Shown: positions 10,076 through 20,086, counted from the first letter of the stretch. The stretch: DNA of 28,696 nt from Minisyncoccota bacterium (GCA_035453545.1 DAOTDH010000001.1:1-28696); one strand, 5' to 3'. The notes: generated from the letters alone by a model not told the origin. Numbers and translations: made by a program.

Positions 10076-10825
10076 ATGTTTTTTTTAAAACTGAGAAGTT
10101 TCAAAGTCAGCTATCCTTATCCTTTAGGTTATCCGATTAAGGCTGTTATAAAAAATTTTAACACACGAGCTTTAATTGGTTGGTTGTTCCAGAAGTATGG
10201 TGCTTCCATCAAGCCGGAAGAAATATTGGTTTCAGAAAGAATTGTTGAGCTCCCCCTTCTTCACCAATGGCTTAGCCGAGTTCCTCTTGATTCAAAAAGT
10301 AAAATTCTTGAGGTTGGCCATGTCGCAAGCAGTGTTTTACTTGAGCTTGCCAGTCTTGGTTATAATGTCACGGGCATTGATCTTCGGCCATATCCATTTA
10401 CTCACAAAAACCTTAAAAGTTTGGTTGGTGATTTTCTTCTCCATGATTTTTGTGACGAAAAATTTGATTTTATTTATTCACTGTCTGTTATTGAGCATTT
10501 TGGTTTTACTCAAAGGTATGACGGAGAGAAGAATGTCGATAATCGCCTTGATGAACAGGCTTTTTCTAAGATGTTTAAATTGCTCAAGGCGTCTGGTCGT
10601 GTCGTTATTAGCGTACCATATTCTCGGCAAGTCTCTTCTGGCGACTGGTTTCGTGTTTATACTCGCGATGATCTAGAACGGAAGCTTGGGGAACATTTCC
10701 AGATTTTGGAACAACAATTTTATGCTCGTGGAAAGGGTCAATGGAACAAAGTTCTAGATATCTCTGGGGATCCTGATTCGGCGAGAGACGGGGTGGCTTT
10801 ATTCCTTCTTTCTCCTAAAAGTTAA
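10076..10825 (+). CDS. Class I SAM-dependent methyltransferase (DUF268-like)
   Basis: ERIVE, motif I ILEVGHV, GIDLR, FDFIYSLSVIEHFG...RYDG, G(R)VVISVPY. Confidence 0.8.
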   Translation: MFFLKLRSFKVSYPYPLGYPIKAVIKNFNTRALIGWLFQKYGASIKPEEILVSERIVELPLLHQWLSRVPLDSKSKILEVGHVASSVLLELASLGYNVTGIDLRPYPFTHKNLKSLVGDFLLHDFCDEKFDFIYSLSVIEHFGFTQRYDGEKNVDNRLDEQAFSKMFKLLKASGRVVISVPYSRQVSSGDWFRVYTRDDLERKLGEHFQILEQQFYARGKGQWNKVLDISGDPDSARDGVALFLLSPKS

Positions 10826-11961
10826 TGAATAAAAGAATTACAACTTTTTTAATTTGTATAGTTGCTATTGGTAAAGCCCTTCTCTGTGGGCGAGCCAATT
10901 CTGCGCTGAAACTCCCCCCCAAAAATATTGTAGCGATGGTTTTAACTAGCAATATTGGGGATATGATTTTTGCCACTTCAGTTTTTAGGGCGATAAAGGA
11001 GAAATATCCCGATTCCCATCTTACTGTTGTTGGTAGTCAGAAAAACAAAGTAACTCTTTATGGCAACAATGACATCGATGAGTACCTCGTCGATCCAAAA
11101 AATTCTTGGCAATTGATCTGGTGTTTGAGAAAAATAAAAGCCGATTATGGTTTTAGTTTGGCAAATAGTTCGGCGGACATTGCTGTTATGTTTTTGTCGG
11201 GGGTCAAGTCAATTGCTTGTTTCGATGTCAAAAATGCTCCTGCCGCGCATACTAAACTTTACAGAGTTTTGAAGACCCTATGTCTACAAGTTCCTTATTA
11301 TATTGGCAACTATTGTTCTTTGGAATATCTTAAAATTTTGGAACCATTGGGTATTTTCTCCAAGAACACTAAGAAATACTTATTCTATGATCAGGTGATT
11401 GCTAGTAATCTAAGAGATAAGTTAAAGAATTACGATTTGGATATTTCTCGAGAAAAGATAGTTGCGATATCTCCTGGGGCGGGAACTAAAATAAAATTAT
11501 GGCCAGCTGAAAGGTTCGCCAAGGTTGCCAACTTTTTAACTCAACAGGGGTATAGGATTGCCGTTATTGGTGGTCCTAGCGACAGGGATGAAGTTAGACT
11601 TTTCAAGTCTAAGTTAATTAATGCTTCTCAGATTGTTGATGCCTCAGAGTTCTCTTTAGGGGAATTATTTTATTTTATTTCTTGTTGCCGCTTATTGGTT
11701 GCTAATGACAGTGGGCCGGTTTATATTGCCGAAGCTTTTAATGTTCCCACCTTGGTGATTGTTGGCCCAACTGACGAAAATGAGCACCCCCCTCATGGCC
11801 CGCTTAATTTTGTCGTGACTCCTAGTCGAGAGAAAGAATCACCAGAAATGCGCGGGCATATTGTTGGTTATAACGAGCAAATTGCTCGAGAGCAAATTGA
11901 ACGGGTTACAGTAGAGGAAGTCCTTTCCGTTCTAAAAATTTTACTTAATAATCTAAGTTGA
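10825..11961 (+). CDS. Glycosyltransferase family 9 (heptosyltransferase-like), paralog 1
   Basis: SNIGDMIF, ISPGAGTKIKLWPAERF, LGELFYFI, NDSGPVYIAEA. Confidence 0.88.
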   Translation: MNKRITTFLICIVAIGKALLCGRANSALKLPPKNIVAMVLTSNIGDMIFATSVFRAIKEKYPDSHLTVVGSQKNKVTLYGNNDIDEYLVDPKNSWQLIWCLRKIKADYGFSLANSSADIAVMFLSGVKSIACFDVKNAPAAHTKLYRVLKTLCLQVPYYIGNYCSLEYLKILEPLGIFSKNTKKYLFYDQVIASNLRDKLKNYDLDISREKIVAISPGAGTKIKLWPAERFAKVANFLTQQGYRIAVIGGPSDRDEVRLFKSKLINASQIVDASEFSLGELFYFISCCRLLVANDSGPVYIAEAFNVPTLVIVGPTDENEHPPHGPLNFVVTPSREKESPEMRGHIVGYNEQIAREQIERVTVEEVLSVLKILLNNLS

Positions 11962-12016: not shown

Positions 12017-13066
12017 ATGAAAAGAGCTTTTATTACAGGGGTTACTGGACAGGACGGATCATATCTTGCCGAGTTTTTAAGTGACAAAGGCTATGAAGTC
12101 TACGGTTTTCTCCGTCGCGTGAGCACTGATCCTTTTATGAGGATCGAGGATTTATATGAAGCTGGCAAAATTAAGCTTATTTATGGTAACTTGCGTGACT
12201 TGCCAACTTTAATCAATGCTTTGGAGGTTGCTCAACCGGACGAAATATATAATCTGGCGGCGCAATCTCATATTGGTGTTTCGTTTGCTTGCCCAGACGA
12301 AACAGTTGATATTAATTTTAGGGGTTTAGAAAGATTAGCTACAGAAGCTTTTAAAAGAAATCCTAAGGTAAAAATTTTTCAACCTTCAACTAGTGTTATG
12401 TATGGCAATGCAGATTTTCCTCAAAGTGAACAGACGGTTTTCGCTCCGGTTCAATTTAGCCCCTATGGAGAGGCAAAACTTAAGGCTCATAACGAAGTAG
12501 TTGTCCCTTTTAGAGAGAAAGGTTTTTTTATTTGTTCTGGGATTCTTTTTAATCATGAATCACCTCGACGGGGGAAGCATTTTGTAACCAAAAAGGTTAG
12601 CCATTCTTTAACAAAACTTAAGTTTGGTAAACAGGACGTTATGACGATGGGTAATCTTGATGTAAAGCGTGACTGGGGCTTTGCTGGTGATTATGTCGAA
12701 GCGATGTGGCTAATGCTCCAACAGGAAACTCCTGAGGACTATGTTATTGCTACAGGGAAGAGCTATTCGGTCAGGGAGTTTATTGAAGAAGTTGCCAAAT
12801 ATCTTGGTTTGACTCTAAAGTGGGAAGGACAAGGTCTAGATGAGGTAGGGAAAGATGAAAATGGTAAAGTAATTATTAAAATTGATGAAAAGTTTTATCG
12901 CCCTAACGAAATAGACAATCTTTTGGGTGACAATACTAAAGCTCGAACAAAGTTAGGGTGGCTACCAAAAACAGACTTCAAGGCTCTGGTCAAAATGATG
13001 GTGGATTCGGATATAAAACAAGTTGTGGGGGTTAACGAGAATAATTATGATCAGAATGTTGGCTAA
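12017..13066 (+). CDS. gmd: GDP-mannose 4,6-dehydratase-like SDR with a non-canonical active site
   Basis: ITGVTGQDGSYLAE, EIYNLAAQSH, SPYGEAK, GILFNHESPRRG, GNLD.KRDWG.A.DYVEAMWLMLQQ..PEDYVIATG. The catalytic STSE motif reads STSV. Confidence 0.85.
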   Translation: MKRAFITGVTGQDGSYLAEFLSDKGYEVYGFLRRVSTDPFMRIEDLYEAGKIKLIYGNLRDLPTLINALEVAQPDEIYNLAAQSHIGVSFACPDETVDINFRGLERLATEAFKRNPKVKIFQPSTSVMYGNADFPQSEQTVFAPVQFSPYGEAKLKAHNEVVVPFREKGFFICSGILFNHESPRRGKHFVTKKVSHSLTKLKFGKQDVMTMGNLDVKRDWGFAGDYVEAMWLMLQQETPEDYVIATGKSYSVREFIEEVAKYLGLTLKWEGQGLDEVGKDENGKVIIKIDEKFYRPNEIDNLLGDNTKARTKLGWLPKTDFKALVKMMVDSDIKQVVGVNENNYDQNVG

Positions 13067-13478
13067 AGATAAAGATATCCTCATTATGGCCCCGGTTGCC
13101 TTAGGAGAACTTATTGATAAAATAACTGTTTTGAAAATTAAAGAGGAACGTATTTCTTTTCCTGAACGTTTAGTGAATGTTAGGAGGGAATTGGGTTTAT
13201 TAACGACCGCAAAGAATGAGTATTTCTTGAAAAACGGTTATCCTGTGGAAAAGATATCCGACCTTGAGCTTCAATTAAAAAAGTTCAACGAAGAAATTTG
13301 GGACATGGGAGAGAAAATACGTGAGCTAGGTGAAAAACAAAATTTTGGTAAGGAATTTGTGGAGGTGGCTTACGGCATTCATCTAGTTAATGACCAGCGA
13401 GCAGCTGTCAAGAAAGATATCAACCTTATTTTCGGTTCTTCTATTGTTGAAGAAAAGTCTTATCAACACTGGCGCTAA
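13056..13478 (+). CDS. DUF6165-like small helical protein
   Basis: LGELIDKITVLKIK, N.EIWD..E.IR, ND.RA.VK..IN, IVEEKSY. The start is uncertain (ATG at 13047, 13056 or 13087); the ORF-track GTG at 13023 is probably too early. Confidence 0.7.
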   Translation: MLAKDKDILIMAPVALGELIDKITVLKIKEERISFPERLVNVRRELGLLTTAKNEYFLKNGYPVEKISDLELQLKKFNEEIWDMGEKIRELGEKQNFGKEFVEVAYGIHLVNDQRAAVKKDINLIFGSSIVEEKSYQHWR

Positions 13479-14773
13479 CTATTTTTAGTGATAACTTCGA
13501 ATTTTGGACAGGGGACAATCAATTTTCCTCCCTTTTCAATGAAGTTAATTTCTCTTTTTTTAAATTCAGCAATAAAGTGCCAAGGAAGCACTAAAAGATA
13601 ATCGGGTTTAGCTTTGCGCATTTCCTCTTCCGAATAAATTGGAATGTCGGTTCCCGCTGTTTTTAAACCGAATTTGGCTGGGGAACGTTCGGCGATGCCG
13701 TCAATTAGGGAATTATCCAGACCAAACCATTGAAGCAAAGTGTTGCCTTTGGTTGAGGCTCCGTAACCCCAGATTGTTTTACCTTTATTTTTCTCTTTTT
13801 TGATAAAGTCAACAGTTTCTTTTTTTAATTTATTTATTTTTTTCCAGAAGTCAGAGTAAATTTTTTTTCTATTAAGCCCCAAAGTTTTTTCGTAAGCTAA
13901 GATTGAGTTTACTCTCATCTTGGCCACGTCTCGGTAAGGGGCGGTGGCGAAGGTTGCAGGATCGGCAGTATTATGTCTGACATAAACCCGAAAGCTCCCC
14001 CCGTTGATATCATTTAGTTCGCAGTCAACTATTTGGAGCTGGTGTTTATCGAGTAAGTATTTTAGAGTGCTTAGACTGTAATATTCGAGGTGCTCATGAC
14101 AAATATTATCAAAGGCTAATTGTGTTAGCATTAGAGGCAAATAACTCATCTGGACAATCCAGAGACCATTTTTGTCTAAAGTATTTTTTATGTCTTTAAC
14201 AAAATTGTTTGGGTCTTCAAGGTCATAAAACATGGCGATACTAGTGATGATCCTCGCTTTTTTCTTGCCATATTTTGTTTTTTTGTATTCTTTAGTCGTG
14301 AAATAATTAGTGACGATTAAATCAGCCTGTTTGCTTGATTCAGCTTTGAAGTCATTTGGGTCAAAACCGATTCTGGTCATTTTTTTGTCCACGAAGGAGA
14401 AAAGGGTGCCGTCGTTACACCCAATATCAAGAAAGATATCACCAGGTTTAATCAGGGAGAGATTTTGCGCTTTCTGGGCAATATTCATTAACTCGTTTGT
14501 CATGGTGGCGTTAGTCCCCGACTTATACCAATATTTTCGATACATAATATCTCCCGGTACTGTGTGAGCTAATTGTACTAAACCAGATTTGGGTGCTAAG
14601 CGTAGCTCAAGCTCTACGGGGACATATTTAGGGGTTTCGTCCTGTTTAATAAAATCGGATAAGTAGAGTTGGCCGAGAGAAAAAAGGGGAACAGTCTTTT
14701 CTCCGGATATTCTGCAAGTTTCTCTTCTCTTTATTTCCCCATTTTTTTTCTTAGTTTTTTGTTTTTTAAGCAT
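13475..14773 (-). CDS. NDP-sugar C-methyltransferase-type protein (TcaB9/KijD1/TylC3-like architecture); the only minus-strand gene
   Basis: CRISG...LVQL N-domain, YWYKSG, motif I LDIGCNDGTL, AMFYDL, catalytic CHEHLEYYS, NGGSFRVY, C-domain GYGASTKGNTLLQ and LVLPWHF. Confidence 0.88.
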   Translation of the reverse strand: MLKKQKTKKKNGEIKRRETCRISGEKTVPLFSLGQLYLSDFIKQDETPKYVPVELELRLAPKSGLVQLAHTVPGDIMYRKYWYKSGTNATMTNELMNIAQKAQNLSLIKPGDIFLDIGCNDGTLFSFVDKKMTRIGFDPNDFKAESSKQADLIVTNYFTTKEYKKTKYGKKKARIITSIAMFYDLEDPNNFVKDIKNTLDKNGLWIVQMSYLPLMLTQLAFDNICHEHLEYYSLSTLKYLLDKHQLQIVDCELNDINGGSFRVYVRHNTADPATFATAPYRDVAKMRVNSILAYEKTLGLNRKKIYSDFWKKINKLKKETVDFIKKEKNKGKTIWGYGASTKGNTLLQWFGLDNSLIDGIAERSPAKFGLKTAGTDIPIYSEEEMRKAKPDYLLVLPWHFIAEFKKREINFIEKGGKLIVPCPKFEVITKNS

Positions 14774-14779
14774 AAGAAA

Positions 14780-14826
14780 ATATTACATGTTTTTCCTTGC
14801 AATTGCAACATATTGTGGTTTATACT
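14780..14826. promoter_or_regulatory. Candidate bidirectional promoter centred on the palindrome TTGCAATTGCAA
   Basis: Plus strand: TTGCAA 14797-14802, 18 bp, TATACT 14821-14826, 7 nt to ATG 14834. Minus strand: TTGCAA 14808-14803, 17 bp, TAATAT 14785-14780, 6 nt to ATG 14773. Confidence 0.65.
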
Positions 14827-14833
14827 TGGAAAG

Positions 14834-15772
14834 ATGAACGGTGATAATCACTATATTAAGATCGTTGAGGGGATCCCTTTTTTTTCTGAAGATCGTTATT
14901 GGGGCAAAAATTCTAAGGTCGAACTAGAGAAAGCCTTGTCTCTTATCAAGGAACGTGGTTGGGATGAATTTAAAGTTAAGTATCAGCATCGGTTTGACTT
15001 CACTTTTGAAGAAAACAGGGCCGACTGGCGTTTCATGATACCCCTTTCTAGGGATTCTCGGGTTTTAGACGCGGGAGCGGGGATGGGGAGAATTAGCGTT
15101 CCTTTGGCGAGGGTTGTGGGCAAGGTTGTGGCGCTTGACCCTTCTTTCCTTCGGATGAAGTTTCTTAAGTTACGAGCCGAAAAAGAGGGTTTAAAAAATA
15201 TTGAAGTTTACGTTGGAGACATTTTTGATAAACCTTTTTCCAGAGAAAGCTTCGACCTCATTGTTATGAATGGATTACTTGAATGGGTCGGAGTTACTGA
15301 TCGTTTTTCTAATCCTCGTGAGGCTCAAATTGCTAGTTTAAAAATTTGTCGAGATTTGTTAAAGAAAGATGGTTACTTGTACGTTGGGATAGAGAACCGT
15401 TTCGCTTTATCATACTTGCGTGGGCGAGACCATAGCGGTTTGTATTACACAAGCTATTTACCACGCTGGCTAGCTAATTTTTACACTAAGTTTAGAAAGG
15501 GGGAGAATTATCAAACTTATACTTACACCAAAGTTGGTTATGAAAAGCTCTTTCGCGAAGTGGGGTTTGATAATGTTAGTTTTTATCTCCCTTATCCGGG
15601 GTATAATCTTCCAAGAGTAATGATTCCTTATAACAACCTAAAAGCTTTAGCTTATCTGATTGGAACAACAAGGGTTAAGAGTAAGATAGTCAGATATTTG
15701 GTTTGTTTTCCCTTGGTTCTTCGTCTCTATCGTTATTTTTTCTTTAGTTTTGGTATTGTCATAAAAAAATGA
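14834..15772 (+). CDS. Class I SAM-dependent methyltransferase
   Basis: VLDAGAGMGRIS, VVALD, FDLIVMNGLLEWV, GIENRF, D-H. The start is moved from the ORF-track 14669 to the in-frame ATG at 14834 because the upstream part overlaps the minus-strand gene and its promoter. Confidence 0.88.
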   Translation: MNGDNHYIKIVEGIPFFSEDRYWGKNSKVELEKALSLIKERGWDEFKVKYQHRFDFTFEENRADWRFMIPLSRDSRVLDAGAGMGRISVPLARVVGKVVALDPSFLRMKFLKLRAEKEGLKNIEVYVGDIFDKPFSRESFDLIVMNGLLEWVGVTDRFSNPREAQIASLKICRDLLKKDGYLYVGIENRFALSYLRGRDHSGLYYTSYLPRWLANFYTKFRKGENYQTYTYTKVGYEKLFREVGFDNVSFYLPYPGYNLPRVMIPYNNLKALAYLIGTTRVKSKIVRYLVCFPLVLRLYRYFFFSFGIVIKK

Positions 15773-16674
15773 TATCTCTCATTACTCAAATTGTAGAAAA
15801 ACACCCTGAATGGCTTCGTGGTTCGGGGGCTCCGCTTTCATTTTTAAAGTTGAGCACAGCTTCTTTAGGGCGATATTCTGAAGAAGGAAAGGTTCTCATT
15901 TTTGTCTTTGAAGATAGGCAAGCCTCACCGACTCTCTGTATTAAGACAGTAAGAAGATATTCAGCCGGTGATTTGATTAAACGTAATTACCATAATCTTC
16001 AGGTCCTTGAAAAGGAAACAAGGGGAAGTAGTTTTATCGATATGTTTGCTAGGCCACTTGACTTTTATGATGACGGAGAAACAATTTTTGTTATTGAGAC
16101 AATTTGTCCCGGGTCAATGTTTTCAGCCCAGATACAAAAGATGAGTATTGTCATTGAAAAATATACTGCCTGGCAGACTTATCTTGCTCGCCTTAGCAAT
16201 GAAGCTTGGACCATCTTTGATATTCAAGAACTTGTTTTTGATTTGATTGAATCCCTTACTTTAGCCGAGGAATCTCCCCTTGTTTTACACGATTATTATA
16301 ATCGGCTAAATCTTGATTTTAATATCAGATTGCCGAGAATTGTTCAGCATGGAGATATGACCCCTGATAATGTTTTGATATCGGATAAAAATGTTTACCT
16401 AATTGACTATGATTATGTGGATTTTACGAGACTTCCAGGTTTTGATTTGTTTAATTTTTTGATGAAATCAAAATCTCAAAAAAATTTCTTCCCTGACAAT
16501 TATGAGCGATACTTTTTGGAATATTTTAAAATGATTGGAGCAGAAGTTGAAGCGGTCGAGGGCCTCTTGTTCGTCTATTATCTATTGGAAATTAAGCGAA
16601 AGAATAATCGAGGAGGGCAAAAAAATAGTCAGGAAATAATAAAGGATTTCTCTGCTCTTATAAACAAAACATGA
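15769..16674 (+). CDS. APH/choline-kinase-fold phosphotransferase
   Basis: LCIKTVR (beta3 Lys), catalytic loop QHGDMTPDNVLI, metal-binding LIDYD, and GFDL. ATGA-coupled to the methyltransferase. Confidence 0.85.
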   Translation: MISLITQIVEKHPEWLRGSGAPLSFLKLSTASLGRYSEEGKVLIFVFEDRQASPTLCIKTVRRYSAGDLIKRNYHNLQVLEKETRGSSFIDMFARPLDFYDDGETIFVIETICPGSMFSAQIQKMSIVIEKYTAWQTYLARLSNEAWTIFDIQELVFDLIESLTLAEESPLVLHDYYNRLNLDFNIRLPRIVQHGDMTPDNVLISDKNVYLIDYDYVDFTRLPGFDLFNFLMKSKSQKNFFPDNYERYFLEYFKMIGAEVEAVEGLLFVYYLLEIKRKNNRGGQKNSQEIIKDFSALINKT

Positions 16675-19060: not shown

Positions 19061-19089
19061 TTGTATCAGAGCGATTAATTTGTTAGTAT
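19061..19089 (+). promoter_or_regulatory. Candidate sigma70 promoter for hldD
   Basis: TTGTAT (19061-19066), 17 bp spacer, TGt-TAGTAT (19081-19089). It overlaps the ORF-track start at 19088, which supports the ATG at 19109. Confidence 0.55.
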
Positions 19090-19108
19090 GAGGAAACGCT
19101 TAATTTAT

Positions 19109-20086
19109 ATGGATAAGAAAATAGTTGTAACAGGGGCCGCGGGTTTTATTGGCAGTGCTATGGTCTCGAAGCTTAATGAACTTGGGTACGGTAATTTAAT
19201 TGTCGTTGACGATTTCACTGATTTGGAGAAAAATAAGAATCTCGAAGAGAAAAAATATTTAGCTAAAATTAGTATCTTTGACTTTCCGAAATGGTTAGCG
19301 GATAACGGAGAACAGGTTTCTTTCATCTTCCATATTGGCGGTAACAGTAGTACAGTAGAAGATCGCCAAGAAGTTTTTGATAAATATAACACTGACTATT
19401 CAAAGAATTTGTGGCAAGAAAGTGTTCGTTCACGAATCCCGATTATTTTTACTTCTTCGGCTGCGACTTACGGTAACGGGAGGCTTGGTTATGTTGATGA
19501 TCATGATCTCGTTCCCAAGTTAGCTCCTCTTAATCTTTACGGTTGGTCAAAACATAATTTTGACTGTTGGGCTTTAAAGCAGGAGGAGACCCCACCTTTT
19601 TGGGTTTGCCTAAAACCGTTCAATGTCTTTGGCCCGAATGAATACCATAAGGGACGGATGGCTTCAATGGTTTGGCATTCTTACCAACAAATAAAAAAAG
19701 ACGGGAAGGTCAAATTATTTCGTTCTTTTACTCCCGACTATGGTGATGGCCAGCATTCACGAGATTTTATTTATATAAAAGACTTGTTGGAAATATATCT
19801 TTTCTTTTTTAATAATCAAACTAATTTTTCTGGTATCTATAATGCCGGCAGTGGCCACGCACGGTCGTTCTTGGATTTGGTTGGGGCCGTCTTTAAGAGT
19901 TTGGGACTAGAACCGAATATTGAATTTGTTGATATCCCCGAGGACATCAGGGAGAAGTATCAGTGCTTTACCGAAGCTGATATGTCTAAACTAAGGCGAG
20001 CTGGTTTTAAAGGGGAACTGAAACAACTAGAAGACAATGTGGCTGATTATGTTAAGAATTATTTGGAAGTTCAAAAATATTATTAA
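19109..20086 (+). CDS. hldD: ADP-L-glycero-D-manno-heptose 6-epimerase
   Basis: MDKKIVVTGAAGFIGS, SSAATYG, PLNLYGWSK, FNVFGPNEYHKGRMASMV, RDFIYIKD, YQCFTEADMSKLRRAG. Confidence 0.92.
   Translation: MDKKIVVTGAAGFIGSAMVSKLNELGYGNLIVVDDFTDLEKNKNLEEKKYLAKISIFDFPKWLADNGEQVSFIFHIGGNSSTVEDRQEVFDKYNTDYSKNLWQESVRSRIPIIFTSSAATYGNGRLGYVDDHDLVPKLAPLNLYGWSKHNFDCWALKQEETPPFWVCLKPFNVFGPNEYHKGRMASMVWHSYQQIKKDGKVKLFRSFTPDYGDGQHSRDFIYIKDLLEIYLFFFNNQTNFSGIYNAGSGHARSFLDLVGAVFKSLGLEPNIEFVDIPEDIREKYQCFTEADMSKLRRAGFKGELKQLEDNVADYVKNYLEVQKYY

What the first reader, a model, noticed from the sequence alone, without database searches (positions are those of the whole stretch)
12017..13066. GMD homolog lacks the catalytic Glu needed for dehydration
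Seen: QPSTSVMYG where GMDs have QAS(T/S)SE(L/M)(Y/F)G. The Val codon GTT (12395-12397) is two changes from either Glu codon, so a single base error is unlikely. The Thr, YxxxK and the NADP-binding RR are intact. Known: in GMD the Glu protonates the C6 leaving group, while Thr/Tyr/Lys perform C4 redox. Inferred: the enzyme may be only a C4 oxidoreductase or epimerase, so the gmd label would predict the wrong sugar.
Basis: partly seen in the sequence, partly recalled or inferred. Interest (0 to 1): 0.65.

Follow-up and report, generated by a model that had tools for sequence, protein, structure and literature searches.

The report
GDP-mannose dehydratase missing its dehydrating glutamate
A sugar-modifying enzyme in a tiny uncultured bacterium has lost the one residue its family needs to remove water from GDP-mannose, yet looks otherwise well kept, so it may now only oxidise and re-reduce the sugar for the methyl-adding enzyme encoded beside it.

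Summary
[quoted passage not shown] Val127 (GTT, 12395-12397) sits where every solved GMD and all 119 nearest homologues have the catalytic Glu. A second contig's protein (348/349 identical) also has Val, so it is not a read error.

The gene is an orthologue of canonical GMDs, sister to an 80%-identical Glu-bearing protein. Its own changes concentrate in the active-site stretch: Y121F, A123P, E127V, T132A, P134F and a 2-residue insertion before Tyr150. Elsewhere it evolves like its sister. NADP site, Thr/Tyr/Lys and GDP-sugar motifs are intact.

Relatives carry GT9, canonical GMD, DUF6165, a Glu-less GMD paralogue and a convergent TylC3-type C-methyltransferase. The window keeps all except the paralogue. 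No other GMD was found in the 82.6%-complete genome.

Best reading (about 0.4): a non-dehydrating C4 oxidoreductase feeding the C-methyltransferase. Rivals are recent inactivation, residual dehydratase activity, or another Glu-independent role. No enzyme was assayed.

This scan has often found Glu-less GMD paralogues beside C-methyltransferases on other DNA. Here the canonical orthologue itself lost the Glu.

The parts
12017..13066 (+). GMD-family ORF (349 aa, P0001); orthologue of canonical GDP-mannose 4,6-dehydratases but lacking the catalytic Glu
   Evidence: PF16363 373.9 bits. TIGR01472 394.3 bits, below the 415 cut-off. 2z1m E=7.6e-103. AF2 pLDDT 91.9 and TM 0.92 to human GMD. Sister of P0002 inside an STSEMY clade.
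12395..12397 (+). GTT codon for Val127, at the position of the catalytic Glu
12377..12418 (+). Remodelled active-site stretch, residues 121-134: F121 (others Y), P123 (A), V127 (E), A132 (T), F134 (P)
   Evidence: 5 of 16 unambiguous lineage-specific substitutions fall in these 14 residues. 4 of 5 deviations from >=95%-conserved columns lie here. P to F needs 2-3 base changes.
12452..12457 (+). In-frame 6-nt insertion CAATTT (Gln146-Phe147), three residues before the catalytic Tyr150
   Evidence: Absent from all 119 homologues. Codon alignment.
12389..12391 (+). Thr125 codon; the redox triad Thr is retained
   Evidence: invariant column
12464..12478 (+). Tyr150-x3-Lys154; the redox dyad is retained
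   Evidence: invariant columns
12113..12118 (+).
   Evidence: invariant columns
10825..11961 (+). GT9 glycosyltransferase directly upstream; a conserved partner of the module
   Evidence: PF01075. 41-51% identical to the GT9 upstream of GMD in L196 and L198, 37% in L007.
13086..13478 (+). DUF6165 protein. The likely start is ATG 13086; the listed TTG 13023 start overlaps the GMD gene. Conserved between GMD and the paralogue or methyltransferase in relatives.
   Evidence: PF19662; atlas 0.93; synteny; sequence
13475..14773 (-). NDP-hexose 3-C-methyltransferase (TylC3/TcaB9 type), convergent with the GMD operon; needs a 4-keto sugar
   Evidence: PF08484 159 bits. 4rv9 E=7e-44 and TcaB9 3ndi E=5e-32. 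62-79% identical to orthologues. Only 4 conservative deviations at 171 invariant columns.
19088..20086 (+). HldD-like SDR, the only other epimerase/dehydratase-family gene in the genome; a possible alternative ketoreductase but unlinked in relatives
   Evidence: TIGR02197 337 bits, above the 274.6 cut-off. 4ej0 E=1e-53. The genome has only these two PF01370 genes. Found in 5 of 401 genomes of the order.

Best explanation
The gene descends from a canonical GDP-mannose 4,6-dehydratase but has become a non-dehydrating C4 oxidoreductase. Shown: the fold, the NADP(H) site, the Thr125/Tyr150/Lys154 redox triad and the GDP-sugar-binding motifs are intact. The single Glu that the family uses for water elimination is Val, and surrounding active-site positions are remodelled. 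Inferred mechanism, in four steps. (1) The enzyme oxidises C4 of GDP-mannose, or a close analogue, to the 4-keto sugar and holds the hydride on NADPH. Without the Glu it cannot eliminate the 6-OH. (2) The neighbouring TylC3-type methyltransferase uses the 4-keto group to methylate C3. (3) A C4 reduction then gives a GDP-3-C-methyl-hexose that keeps its 6-hydroxyl. The reduction is most economically done by the same enzyme returning its hydride, which would also explain why the Glu-less reductase paralogue of related loci is missing here. (4) The adjacent GT9 transfers the sugar to a surface glycan.
For: - Position and family: Val127 aligns to the catalytic Glu. The GMD signature needs that single Glu (PMC8987622). 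Human E157Q was crystallised with GDP-mannose (6GPK).
- The rest of the machinery is intact: all invariant NADP, triad and GDP-sugar columns are kept, and the model is confident and GMD-like.
- Changes are local, not global. 5 of 16 lineage-specific substitutions plus a 2-residue insertion lie in residues 121-147. Outside that stretch there are 11 changes against 9 in the canonical sister. The terminal branch is 0.15 against a median of 0.24. Uniform neutral decay would not give this pattern. E to V and P to F each need two or more base changes.
- Y121F mirrors a family-wide coupling: nearly all non-acidic residues at position 127 go with F or C at 121, as in the stably maintained Glu-less paralogues.
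- Context: the 3-C-methyltransferase is adjacent and as well conserved as its orthologues. DUF6165 and GT9 are retained.
- No other GMD and no GMD-like reductase was found in the genome.
- Precedents: Cj1427 is a GDP-sugar SDR that only oxidises C4 (PMC10680097). Some GMDs also reduce C4 of their released product (PMC3539893). 3-C-methyl-D-mannose exists in nature (PMC12961483).
Against: - No biochemical data exist for this protein.
- The variant is known from only two near-identical sequences among 5.8 billion clusters, so long-term maintenance is not shown.
- All 19 other C-methyltransferase loci inspected in this order keep a Glu-bearing GMD-family gene. The normal substrate of this methyltransferase is therefore probably the 4-keto-6-deoxy sugar, and its pocket shows no matching change in the window.
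- Releasing a 4-keto intermediate from a GMD holding NADPH, and taking it back, is unproven for this family.
- No nucleotidyltransferase or phosphomannomutase was found in the 82.6%-complete assembly, so the source of GDP-mannose is unknown.
Confidence: 0.4

Rival explanations
1. Recent loss of function. The branched-sugar pathway is being dismantled in this reduced genome. The reductase paralogue has already been deleted and the dehydratase is catalytically dead but not yet disrupted.
For: It is a singleton lineage of two near-identical sequences. The paralogue present in the closest relatives is missing. Every other methyltransferase locus examined keeps a Glu-bearing GMD. The module is absent from all 8 other genomes of the genus, so it is dispensable. 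No sugar-activation genes were found.
Against: Substitutions are concentrated more than ten-fold in the active-site stretch, while the rest of the protein changes at the sister's rate. Only one conservative deviation (V86I) occurs in about 100 conserved columns outside the stretch. The ORF is intact in two assemblies. The methyltransferase and DUF6165 show no decay. Multi-step codon changes imply that time passed after the first hit.
Confidence: 0.25
2. It is still a dehydratase, though weaker. Another group takes over proton transfer, for example water with Tyr150, or the lineage-specific Asp133 on the remodelled loop. The usual 4-keto-6-deoxy sugar is then still made for the methyltransferase.
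For: The methyltransferase pocket is unchanged relative to loci with canonical GMDs. The insertion and the Asp133/Phe134 changes reshape the loop that follows the catalytic motif. From memory, unverified here: Glu/Asp mutants of dTDP-glucose 4,6-dehydratase keep roughly 1% activity.
Against: GMD has only this one extra catalytic residue (PMC8987622). Human E157Q was crystallised with GDP-mannose (6GPK). Glu is invariant in 119 of 119 close homologues and about 95% of more than 300 family members sampled. A hydrophobic Val offers no proton relay.
Confidence: 0.15
3. It is functional, but in another Glu-independent role: a GDP-mannose 4-epimerase (GalE-like [ST]...Yx3K site), a ketoreductase acting on a sugar made elsewhere, a C4 oxidase of a GDP-heptose (Cj1427-like, given the HldD and GT9 neighbours), or a non-catalytic partner of the methyltransferase or GT9.
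For: The TSV...Yx3K motif matches the epimerase-type signature in the review's table. Heptose-type genes lie in the same cluster. The local-versus-global constraint pattern shows the protein is kept for something.
Against: Conserved synteny ties this gene to the methyltransferase rather than to HldD, which is absent from related loci. No heptose-nucleotide pathway genes were found. No donor of a 4-keto sugar exists in the assembly.
Confidence: 0.2

Closest known systems
[quoted passage not shown]
   Same: Same fold (TM 0.92). About 50% identical to solved GMDs and 73-80% to CPR (candidate phyla radiation) orthologues. Same NADP site, Thr/Tyr/Lys triad, GILFNHESPRRG and RDWG motifs. Same position in the GT9-GMD-DUF6165 operon.
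   Different: The catalytic Glu is Val. There are further changes at Y121, A123 and P134 and a 2-residue insertion before the catalytic Tyr. It scores 394 bits against the 415 cut-off, where its sisters score 404-416.
Human GMD E157Q laboratory variant (PDB 6GPK)
   Same: A GMD with the Glu removed and the redox triad left in place.
   Different: That variant is engineered, has a single conservative change, and was used to obtain a GDP-mannose complex. The window's protein is natural, has a hydrophobic residue at the site, and has accompanying active-site remodelling.
Glu-less GMD paralogues next to TylC3-type C-methyltransferases (uncharacterised; SS[SA]QMFD and related, labelled 'GDP-mannose 4,6-dehydratase' in databases)
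   Same: No Glu, F at position 121, Yx3K kept, encoded beside the same methyltransferase.
   Different: They form a separate, long-branch clade only 37-51% identical to the window's protein. They co-occur with a Glu-bearing GMD. The window's protein belongs to the canonical clade and stands alone.
[quoted passage not shown]
   Same: A GDP-sugar SDR that stops after C4 oxidation and supplies a 4-keto sugar, with the side-chain hydroxyl kept, to downstream tailoring enzymes (PMC10680097).
   Different: Not a close sequence relative: it did not appear among the PDB sequence hits. It uses tightly bound NAD(H) re-oxidised by alpha-ketoglutarate, and acts on a heptose in an epimerase/reductase pathway.
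Proposed GDP route to virenose (6-deoxy-3-C-methyl-gulose) in Coxiella burnetii: GMD, then TylC3-like C-methyltransferase, then reductase
   Same: The same enzyme families in one cluster. It is the likely model for the canonical version of this module in related CPR genomes (PMC3539893).
   Different: That route needs an active dehydratase and gives a 6-deoxy sugar. It is also only an in-silico proposal. The window lacks both the dehydrating residue and the separate reductase.

Membership tests
GDP-mannose 4,6-dehydratase (EC 4.2.1.47, TIGR01472) | Extended-SDR fold with an N-terminal GxxGxxG NADP(H) site and Arg pair | tested here: met
   G8-T-G-Q-D-G14 and R33-R34 lie in invariant columns. 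AF2 model has TM 0.92 and rmsd 1.5 A to 1t2a.
GDP-mannose 4,6-dehydratase (EC 4.2.1.47, TIGR01472) | Catalytic signature [ST]-S-E ... Y-x3-K, in which the Glu is the only dehydration acid/base | tested here: not met
   The motif is T125-S126-V127 ... Y150-x3-K154. The signature is taken from PMC8987622.
GDP-mannose 4,6-dehydratase (EC 4.2.1.47, TIGR01472) | Score at or above the curated equivalog cut-off (415 bits) | tested here: not met
   394.3 bits. Canonical sisters score 404.5-415.6, so the clade is borderline anyway.
GDP-mannose 4,6-dehydratase (EC 4.2.1.47, TIGR01472) | Phylogenetic placement among proven or canonical GMDs | tested here: met
   Sister to P0002 (support 100/99), nested in a 14-member STSEMY clade.
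GDP-mannose 4,6-dehydratase (EC 4.2.1.47, TIGR01472) | Converts GDP-mannose to GDP-4-keto-6-deoxymannose | not testable with these tools
   Needs an enzyme assay.
Glu-less GMD paralogues partnered with C-methyltransferases (uncharacterised) | Non-acidic residue at the Glu position, with F or C in place of the coupled Tyr121 | tested here: met
   V127 and F121. The coupling is seen family-wide.
Glu-less GMD paralogues partnered with C-methyltransferases (uncharacterised) | Membership of the paralogue clade (SS[SA]Q/R motif, 'SD' instead of 'SH' at residues 84-85) | tested here: not met
   The paralogues form a separate clade. The window keeps STS and SH(I) and is only 37-51% identical to them.
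Glu-less GMD paralogues partnered with C-methyltransferases (uncharacterised) | Encoded beside a TylC3-type C-methyltransferase | tested here: met
   The methyltransferase at 13475-14773 (-) lies 409 nt downstream, with only DUF6165 between.
Cj1427-type GDP-sugar C4 dehydrogenase | SDR with a redox triad but no dehydration acid/base, releasing a 4-keto GDP-sugar | tested here: inconclusive
   The sequence features fit. Release of a keto product is untested.
Cj1427-type GDP-sugar C4 dehydrogenase | Sequence kinship with Cj1427 and ping-pong re-oxidation by alpha-ketoglutarate | not tested
   No entry named Cj1427 was among the 46 PDB sequence matches, and no Cj1427 sequence was available to compare. 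The chemistry needs an assay.

The most novel reading that the evidence does not exclude
A canonical GMD has been converted in nature into a hydrogen-borrowing C4 oxidoreductase. It oxidises GDP-mannose at C4 without deoxygenating C6, lets the neighbouring TylC3-type enzyme methylate C3, and then returns the hydride. The product would be GDP-3-C-methyl-mannose (or -talose). That would be the first genetic route to a 6-hydroxy 3-C-methyl hexose, a sugar class reported from Helicobacter pylori O-antigen. I know of no described pathway for it, and I did not search for one. It would also show that one residue plus a few second-shell changes switches a dehydratase into an oxidoreductase.
Probability: 0.3. 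Interest if true: 0.75.

Novelty: new variant of a known kind. Interest (0 to 1): 0.5.

Why it matters
Annotation pipelines will call this gene gmd and predict a 6-deoxy sugar. The sequence says the defining chemical step is probably gone.

If the protein is active, it is a natural experiment on how extended-SDR sugar enzymes switch between dehydration and plain oxidoreduction. The set of co-changed residues (Y121F, A123P, E127V, P134F and a loop insertion) could be tested directly by swapping them into a close canonical orthologue.

It would also point to a simple two-enzyme route to C-methyl-branched hexoses that keep their 6-hydroxyl. No such pathway turned up in what I read, but I did not search for one specifically.

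If it is merely decaying, it is a clean snapshot of how an accessory glycan pathway is lost in a minimal symbiont genome.

Tried and rejected
- Sequencing error: rejected. A second contig gives the same Val and the same insertion, and the codon needs two changes.
- Compensated frameshift or patch conversion from the Glu-less paralogue: rejected. The residues between the changed positions are the canonical ones, and only F121 is shared with the paralogue.
- Second gmd in the genome: none found with TIGR01472 or PF01370.
- Other proteins with the STSV motif: a region-restricted search of 5.8 billion clusters returned only the protein's own cluster.
The genome contigs and metagenome-contig scans returned only relatives of 60% identity or less. 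Context came instead from the genome search at order level.
- Stand-alone 'C-methyltransferase plus Glu-less GMD' loci, which would prove an oxidase role: none among 12 further loci. All keep Glu.
- 'Loss of the paralogue explains the Val': weakened. G106 and G094 also lack the adjacent paralogue yet keep a canonical GMD, although they have other SDRs elsewhere.
- A substitute acid in a 3D model: not testable, because model coordinates are not exposed.
- Papers: one literature search was wasted on an ill-chosen term. The Pfeiffer 2019 and Cj1427 structure papers are not held.

Full report
**1. Observation**

ORF 12017-13066 (+) encodes a 349-aa protein, P0001, containing KIFQPSTSVMYG. Codon 127 is GTT at 12395-12397.

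The protein matches Pfam GDP_Man_Dehyd at 373.9 bits. It matches NCBIfam TIGR01472 (gmd) at 394.3 bits, under the 415-bit cut-off. Its best solved relatives are all GMDs: 2z1m at E=7.6e-103 and human 6gpj/1t2a at about 1e-98. In their alignments Val127 lies opposite the Glu of STSEMFG/STSELYG.

All 119 best database homologues, at 58-80% identity, have STSEM[YF]G. A second protein from a different 23-kb contig, P0121, is 348/349 identical and has the same Val and the same insertion.

**2.

- Against columns conserved in at least 95% of 119 homologues, P0001 deviates at I86, F121, P123, V127 and F134. It also has a unique 2-residue insertion, Q146-F147, three residues before the catalytic Tyr150.
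- With the sister P0002 (80% identical, canonical) and nine outgroups, 16 substitutions can be assigned unambiguously to P0001's branch. Five of them fall in residues 121-134.
- Outside that stretch P0001 has 11 changes and the sister has 9.
- Four of the five conserved-column deviations lie in a 14-residue window holding 10 of the 110 conserved columns. The hypergeometric p is 1.7e-4 before correction for scanning.
- At the DNA level, E to V needs two changes, P to F needs two or three, and the insertion is CAATTT.
- A maximum-likelihood tree places P0001 as sister of P0002 (support 100/99), inside a 14-member clade that is otherwise entirely STSEMY. Its terminal branch is unremarkable at 0.15, against a median of 0.24.

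The gene is therefore an orthologue of canonical GMDs. It changed on its own terminal branch, in the active site and essentially nowhere else. Uniform neutral decay of a dead gene does not produce that pattern. It means the rest of the protein stayed under constraint.

**3. A family-wide coupling**

Across GMD-family genes collected from about 200 loci, Tyr121 goes with Glu127 in 190 cases. All seven proteins with a non-acidic residue at 127 have Phe or Cys at 121.

A second sample of about 116 proteins gave 101 Y/E, 8 F/E, 6 F/Q and 1 Y/Q. P0001's Y121F therefore repeats what the stably maintained Glu-less paralogues did.

**4. Neighbourhood**

The gene sits in a large surface-glycan cluster with GT4, GT9 and GT2 transferases and several methyltransferases. 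Its immediate neighbours are:

- Upstream, a GT9 at 10825-11961.
- Downstream, a DUF6165 gene, whose likely start is ATG 13086.
- Convergent with these, a TylC3/TcaB9-type NDP-hexose 3-C-methyltransferase at 13475-14773 on the minus strand (4rv9 E=7e-44). This enzyme class needs a 4-keto sugar.

Related CPR (candidate phyla radiation) genomes (G109, G170, G091 and a Saccharibacteria MAG) carry GT9, canonical GMD, DUF6165 (in G109 and the Saccharibacteria MAG), a second GMD paralogue and a convergent methyltransferase. The paralogue reads SSSQMFD, SSAQVFS, ALSSRMLQ or SSAEMYG. The Gln-type paralogue is a conserved small family, with members 56-73% identical to one another. Three of them share a longest-contig length with one of P0001's closest canonical homologues, which suggests the same contig. 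Sources label them 'GDP-mannose 4,6-dehydratase'.

The window has the same layout minus the paralogue. Its methyltransferase is as well conserved as any orthologue, with 4 conservative deviations at 171 invariant columns against 1-7 for the others. DUF6165 is likewise normal.

The assembly is 550 kb in 103 contigs and 82.6% complete. It holds only two epimerase/dehydratase-family genes: this one, and an HldD-like SDR at 19088-20086.

**5. Points that cut the other way**

- G106 and G094 also lack the adjacent paralogue but keep a canonical GMD. They have other SDRs elsewhere.
- In 12 further genomes of the order, the GMD-family gene beside the methyltransferase always keeps Glu. The window is the only methyltransferase locus examined with no Glu-bearing GMD.
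- The Val127 lineage is tiny. A region-restricted search found only its own cluster.
- The module is absent from the 8 other genomes of the genus.
- No nucleotidyltransferase (PF00483, PF12804, PF01467), phosphomannomutase or GmhA was found in the assembly. Two of four relatives with the canonical module also lack PF00483, so this says little.

**6. Mechanistic reading**

A review of nucleotide-sugar dehydratases gives the GMD signature as [ST]SE...Yx3K, with the single Glu as the only extra catalytic residue. GalE-type 4-epimerases have [ST]...Yx3K and nothing more (PMC8987622). The engineered human E157Q enzyme was crystallised with GDP-mannose (PDB 6GPK).

P0001 should therefore still bind NADP and GDP-mannose and oxidise C4, but should not eliminate water.

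Two precedents make the next steps plausible:

- Cj1427 of C. jejuni is a GDP-sugar SDR that only oxidises C4 and hands the 4-keto sugar to tailoring enzymes (PMC10680097).
- Several bacterial GMDs can also reduce C4 of their released product (PMC3539893).

The most economical scheme is C4 oxidation, then C3 methylation by the neighbour, then return of the hydride to C4. The product would be a GDP-3-C-methyl-hexose that keeps O6. 3-C-methyl-D-mannose exists in H. pylori O-antigen (PMC12961483). I know of no described pathway for it, and I did not search for one.

The canonical version of the module in relatives resembles the proposed GDP route to virenose (PMC3539893).

All steps after 'cannot dehydrate' are inference.

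**7. Confidence in each reading**

| Reading | Confidence |
|---|---|
| Non-dehydrating C4 oxidoreductase feeding the methyltransferase | 0.40 |
| Recent inactivation | 0.25 |
| Another Glu-independent role (4-epimerase, heptose oxidase, reductase, scaffold) | 0.20 |
| Residual dehydratase activity through another proton relay | 0.15 |

The AlphaFold model is confident, with pLDDT 91.9, and is GMD-like. Whether Asp133 or another acid reaches the site could therefore not be checked.

**8. Novelty and earlier notes of this scan**

The scan has repeatedly found Glu-less GMD paralogues travelling with, or fused to, C-methyltransferases in other genomes. I confirmed such paralogues in the relatives of this locus.

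The case here is different. The canonical orthologue itself has lost the Glu and stands alone beside the methyltransferase. That makes it a new variant of a known kind. It is interesting to SDR enzymologists and for annotation, but it rests on two sequences and no biochemistry.

Noticed in passing
L197:8222-10322 (G170:C4): The C-terminal ~130 residues of the Glu-less paralogue are largely identical to those of the adjacent canonical GMD: a ~70-residue stretch matches exactly and the tails differ. The N-terminal halves are only about 40% alike. This looks like gene conversion between tandem paralogues. The database proteins P0012 and P0014 appear to be the corresponding chimeras.
   Followed up: partly
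whole genome G000 (550 kb, 82.6% complete): No hit for NTP_transferase (PF00483), NTP_transf_3 (PF12804), CTP_transf_like (PF01467), PGM_PMM_I (PF02878) or GmhA (TIGR00441), although the window alone encodes more than ten glycosyltransferases. Either the genes lie in the unassembled part or activated sugars come from a host.
   Followed up: partly
window 19088-20086 (+): An HldD-type ADP-heptose 6-epimerase homologue passes the TIGR02197 cut-off (337 against 274.6 bits). It is rare in this order, found in 5 of 401 genomes. It sits after a second GT9, and no other heptose-pathway gene was found.
   Followed up: partly
window 13023-13478 (+): DUF6165 is a conserved member of the GMD/C-methyltransferase module in several CPR lineages, always directly after the canonical GMD. 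One protein-atlas cluster of this family is 86% viral. Its function is unknown. The listed TTG start overlaps the GMD gene, and ATG 13086 is the likelier start.
   Followed up: partly
GMD family generally (loci L003-L213, proteins P0123-P0241): Tyr at position 121 (the Y of YQASTSE) is tightly coupled to the catalytic Glu. Almost every natural variant without an acid at 127 has F or C there. This suggests the Tyr hydroxyl works with the Glu, and gives a simple two-residue test for mislabelled 'gmd' genes.
   Followed up: partly
L010:9986-12072 (Candidatus Nomurabacteria MAG): A tandem pair of GMD-family genes lies near a distant C-methyltransferase homologue. The first has Arg at the Glu position (AGSSRMFD) and also NHIS in place of NHES. 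The second is canonical (STSELF).
   Followed up: no
window 14669-16674 (+): A SAM methyltransferase is followed by an APH-fold kinase-like ORF. In G170 the kinase-like part is fused to a GT4 (L197:15299-17371, 690 aa) and sits next to the methyltransferase homologue.
   Followed up: no
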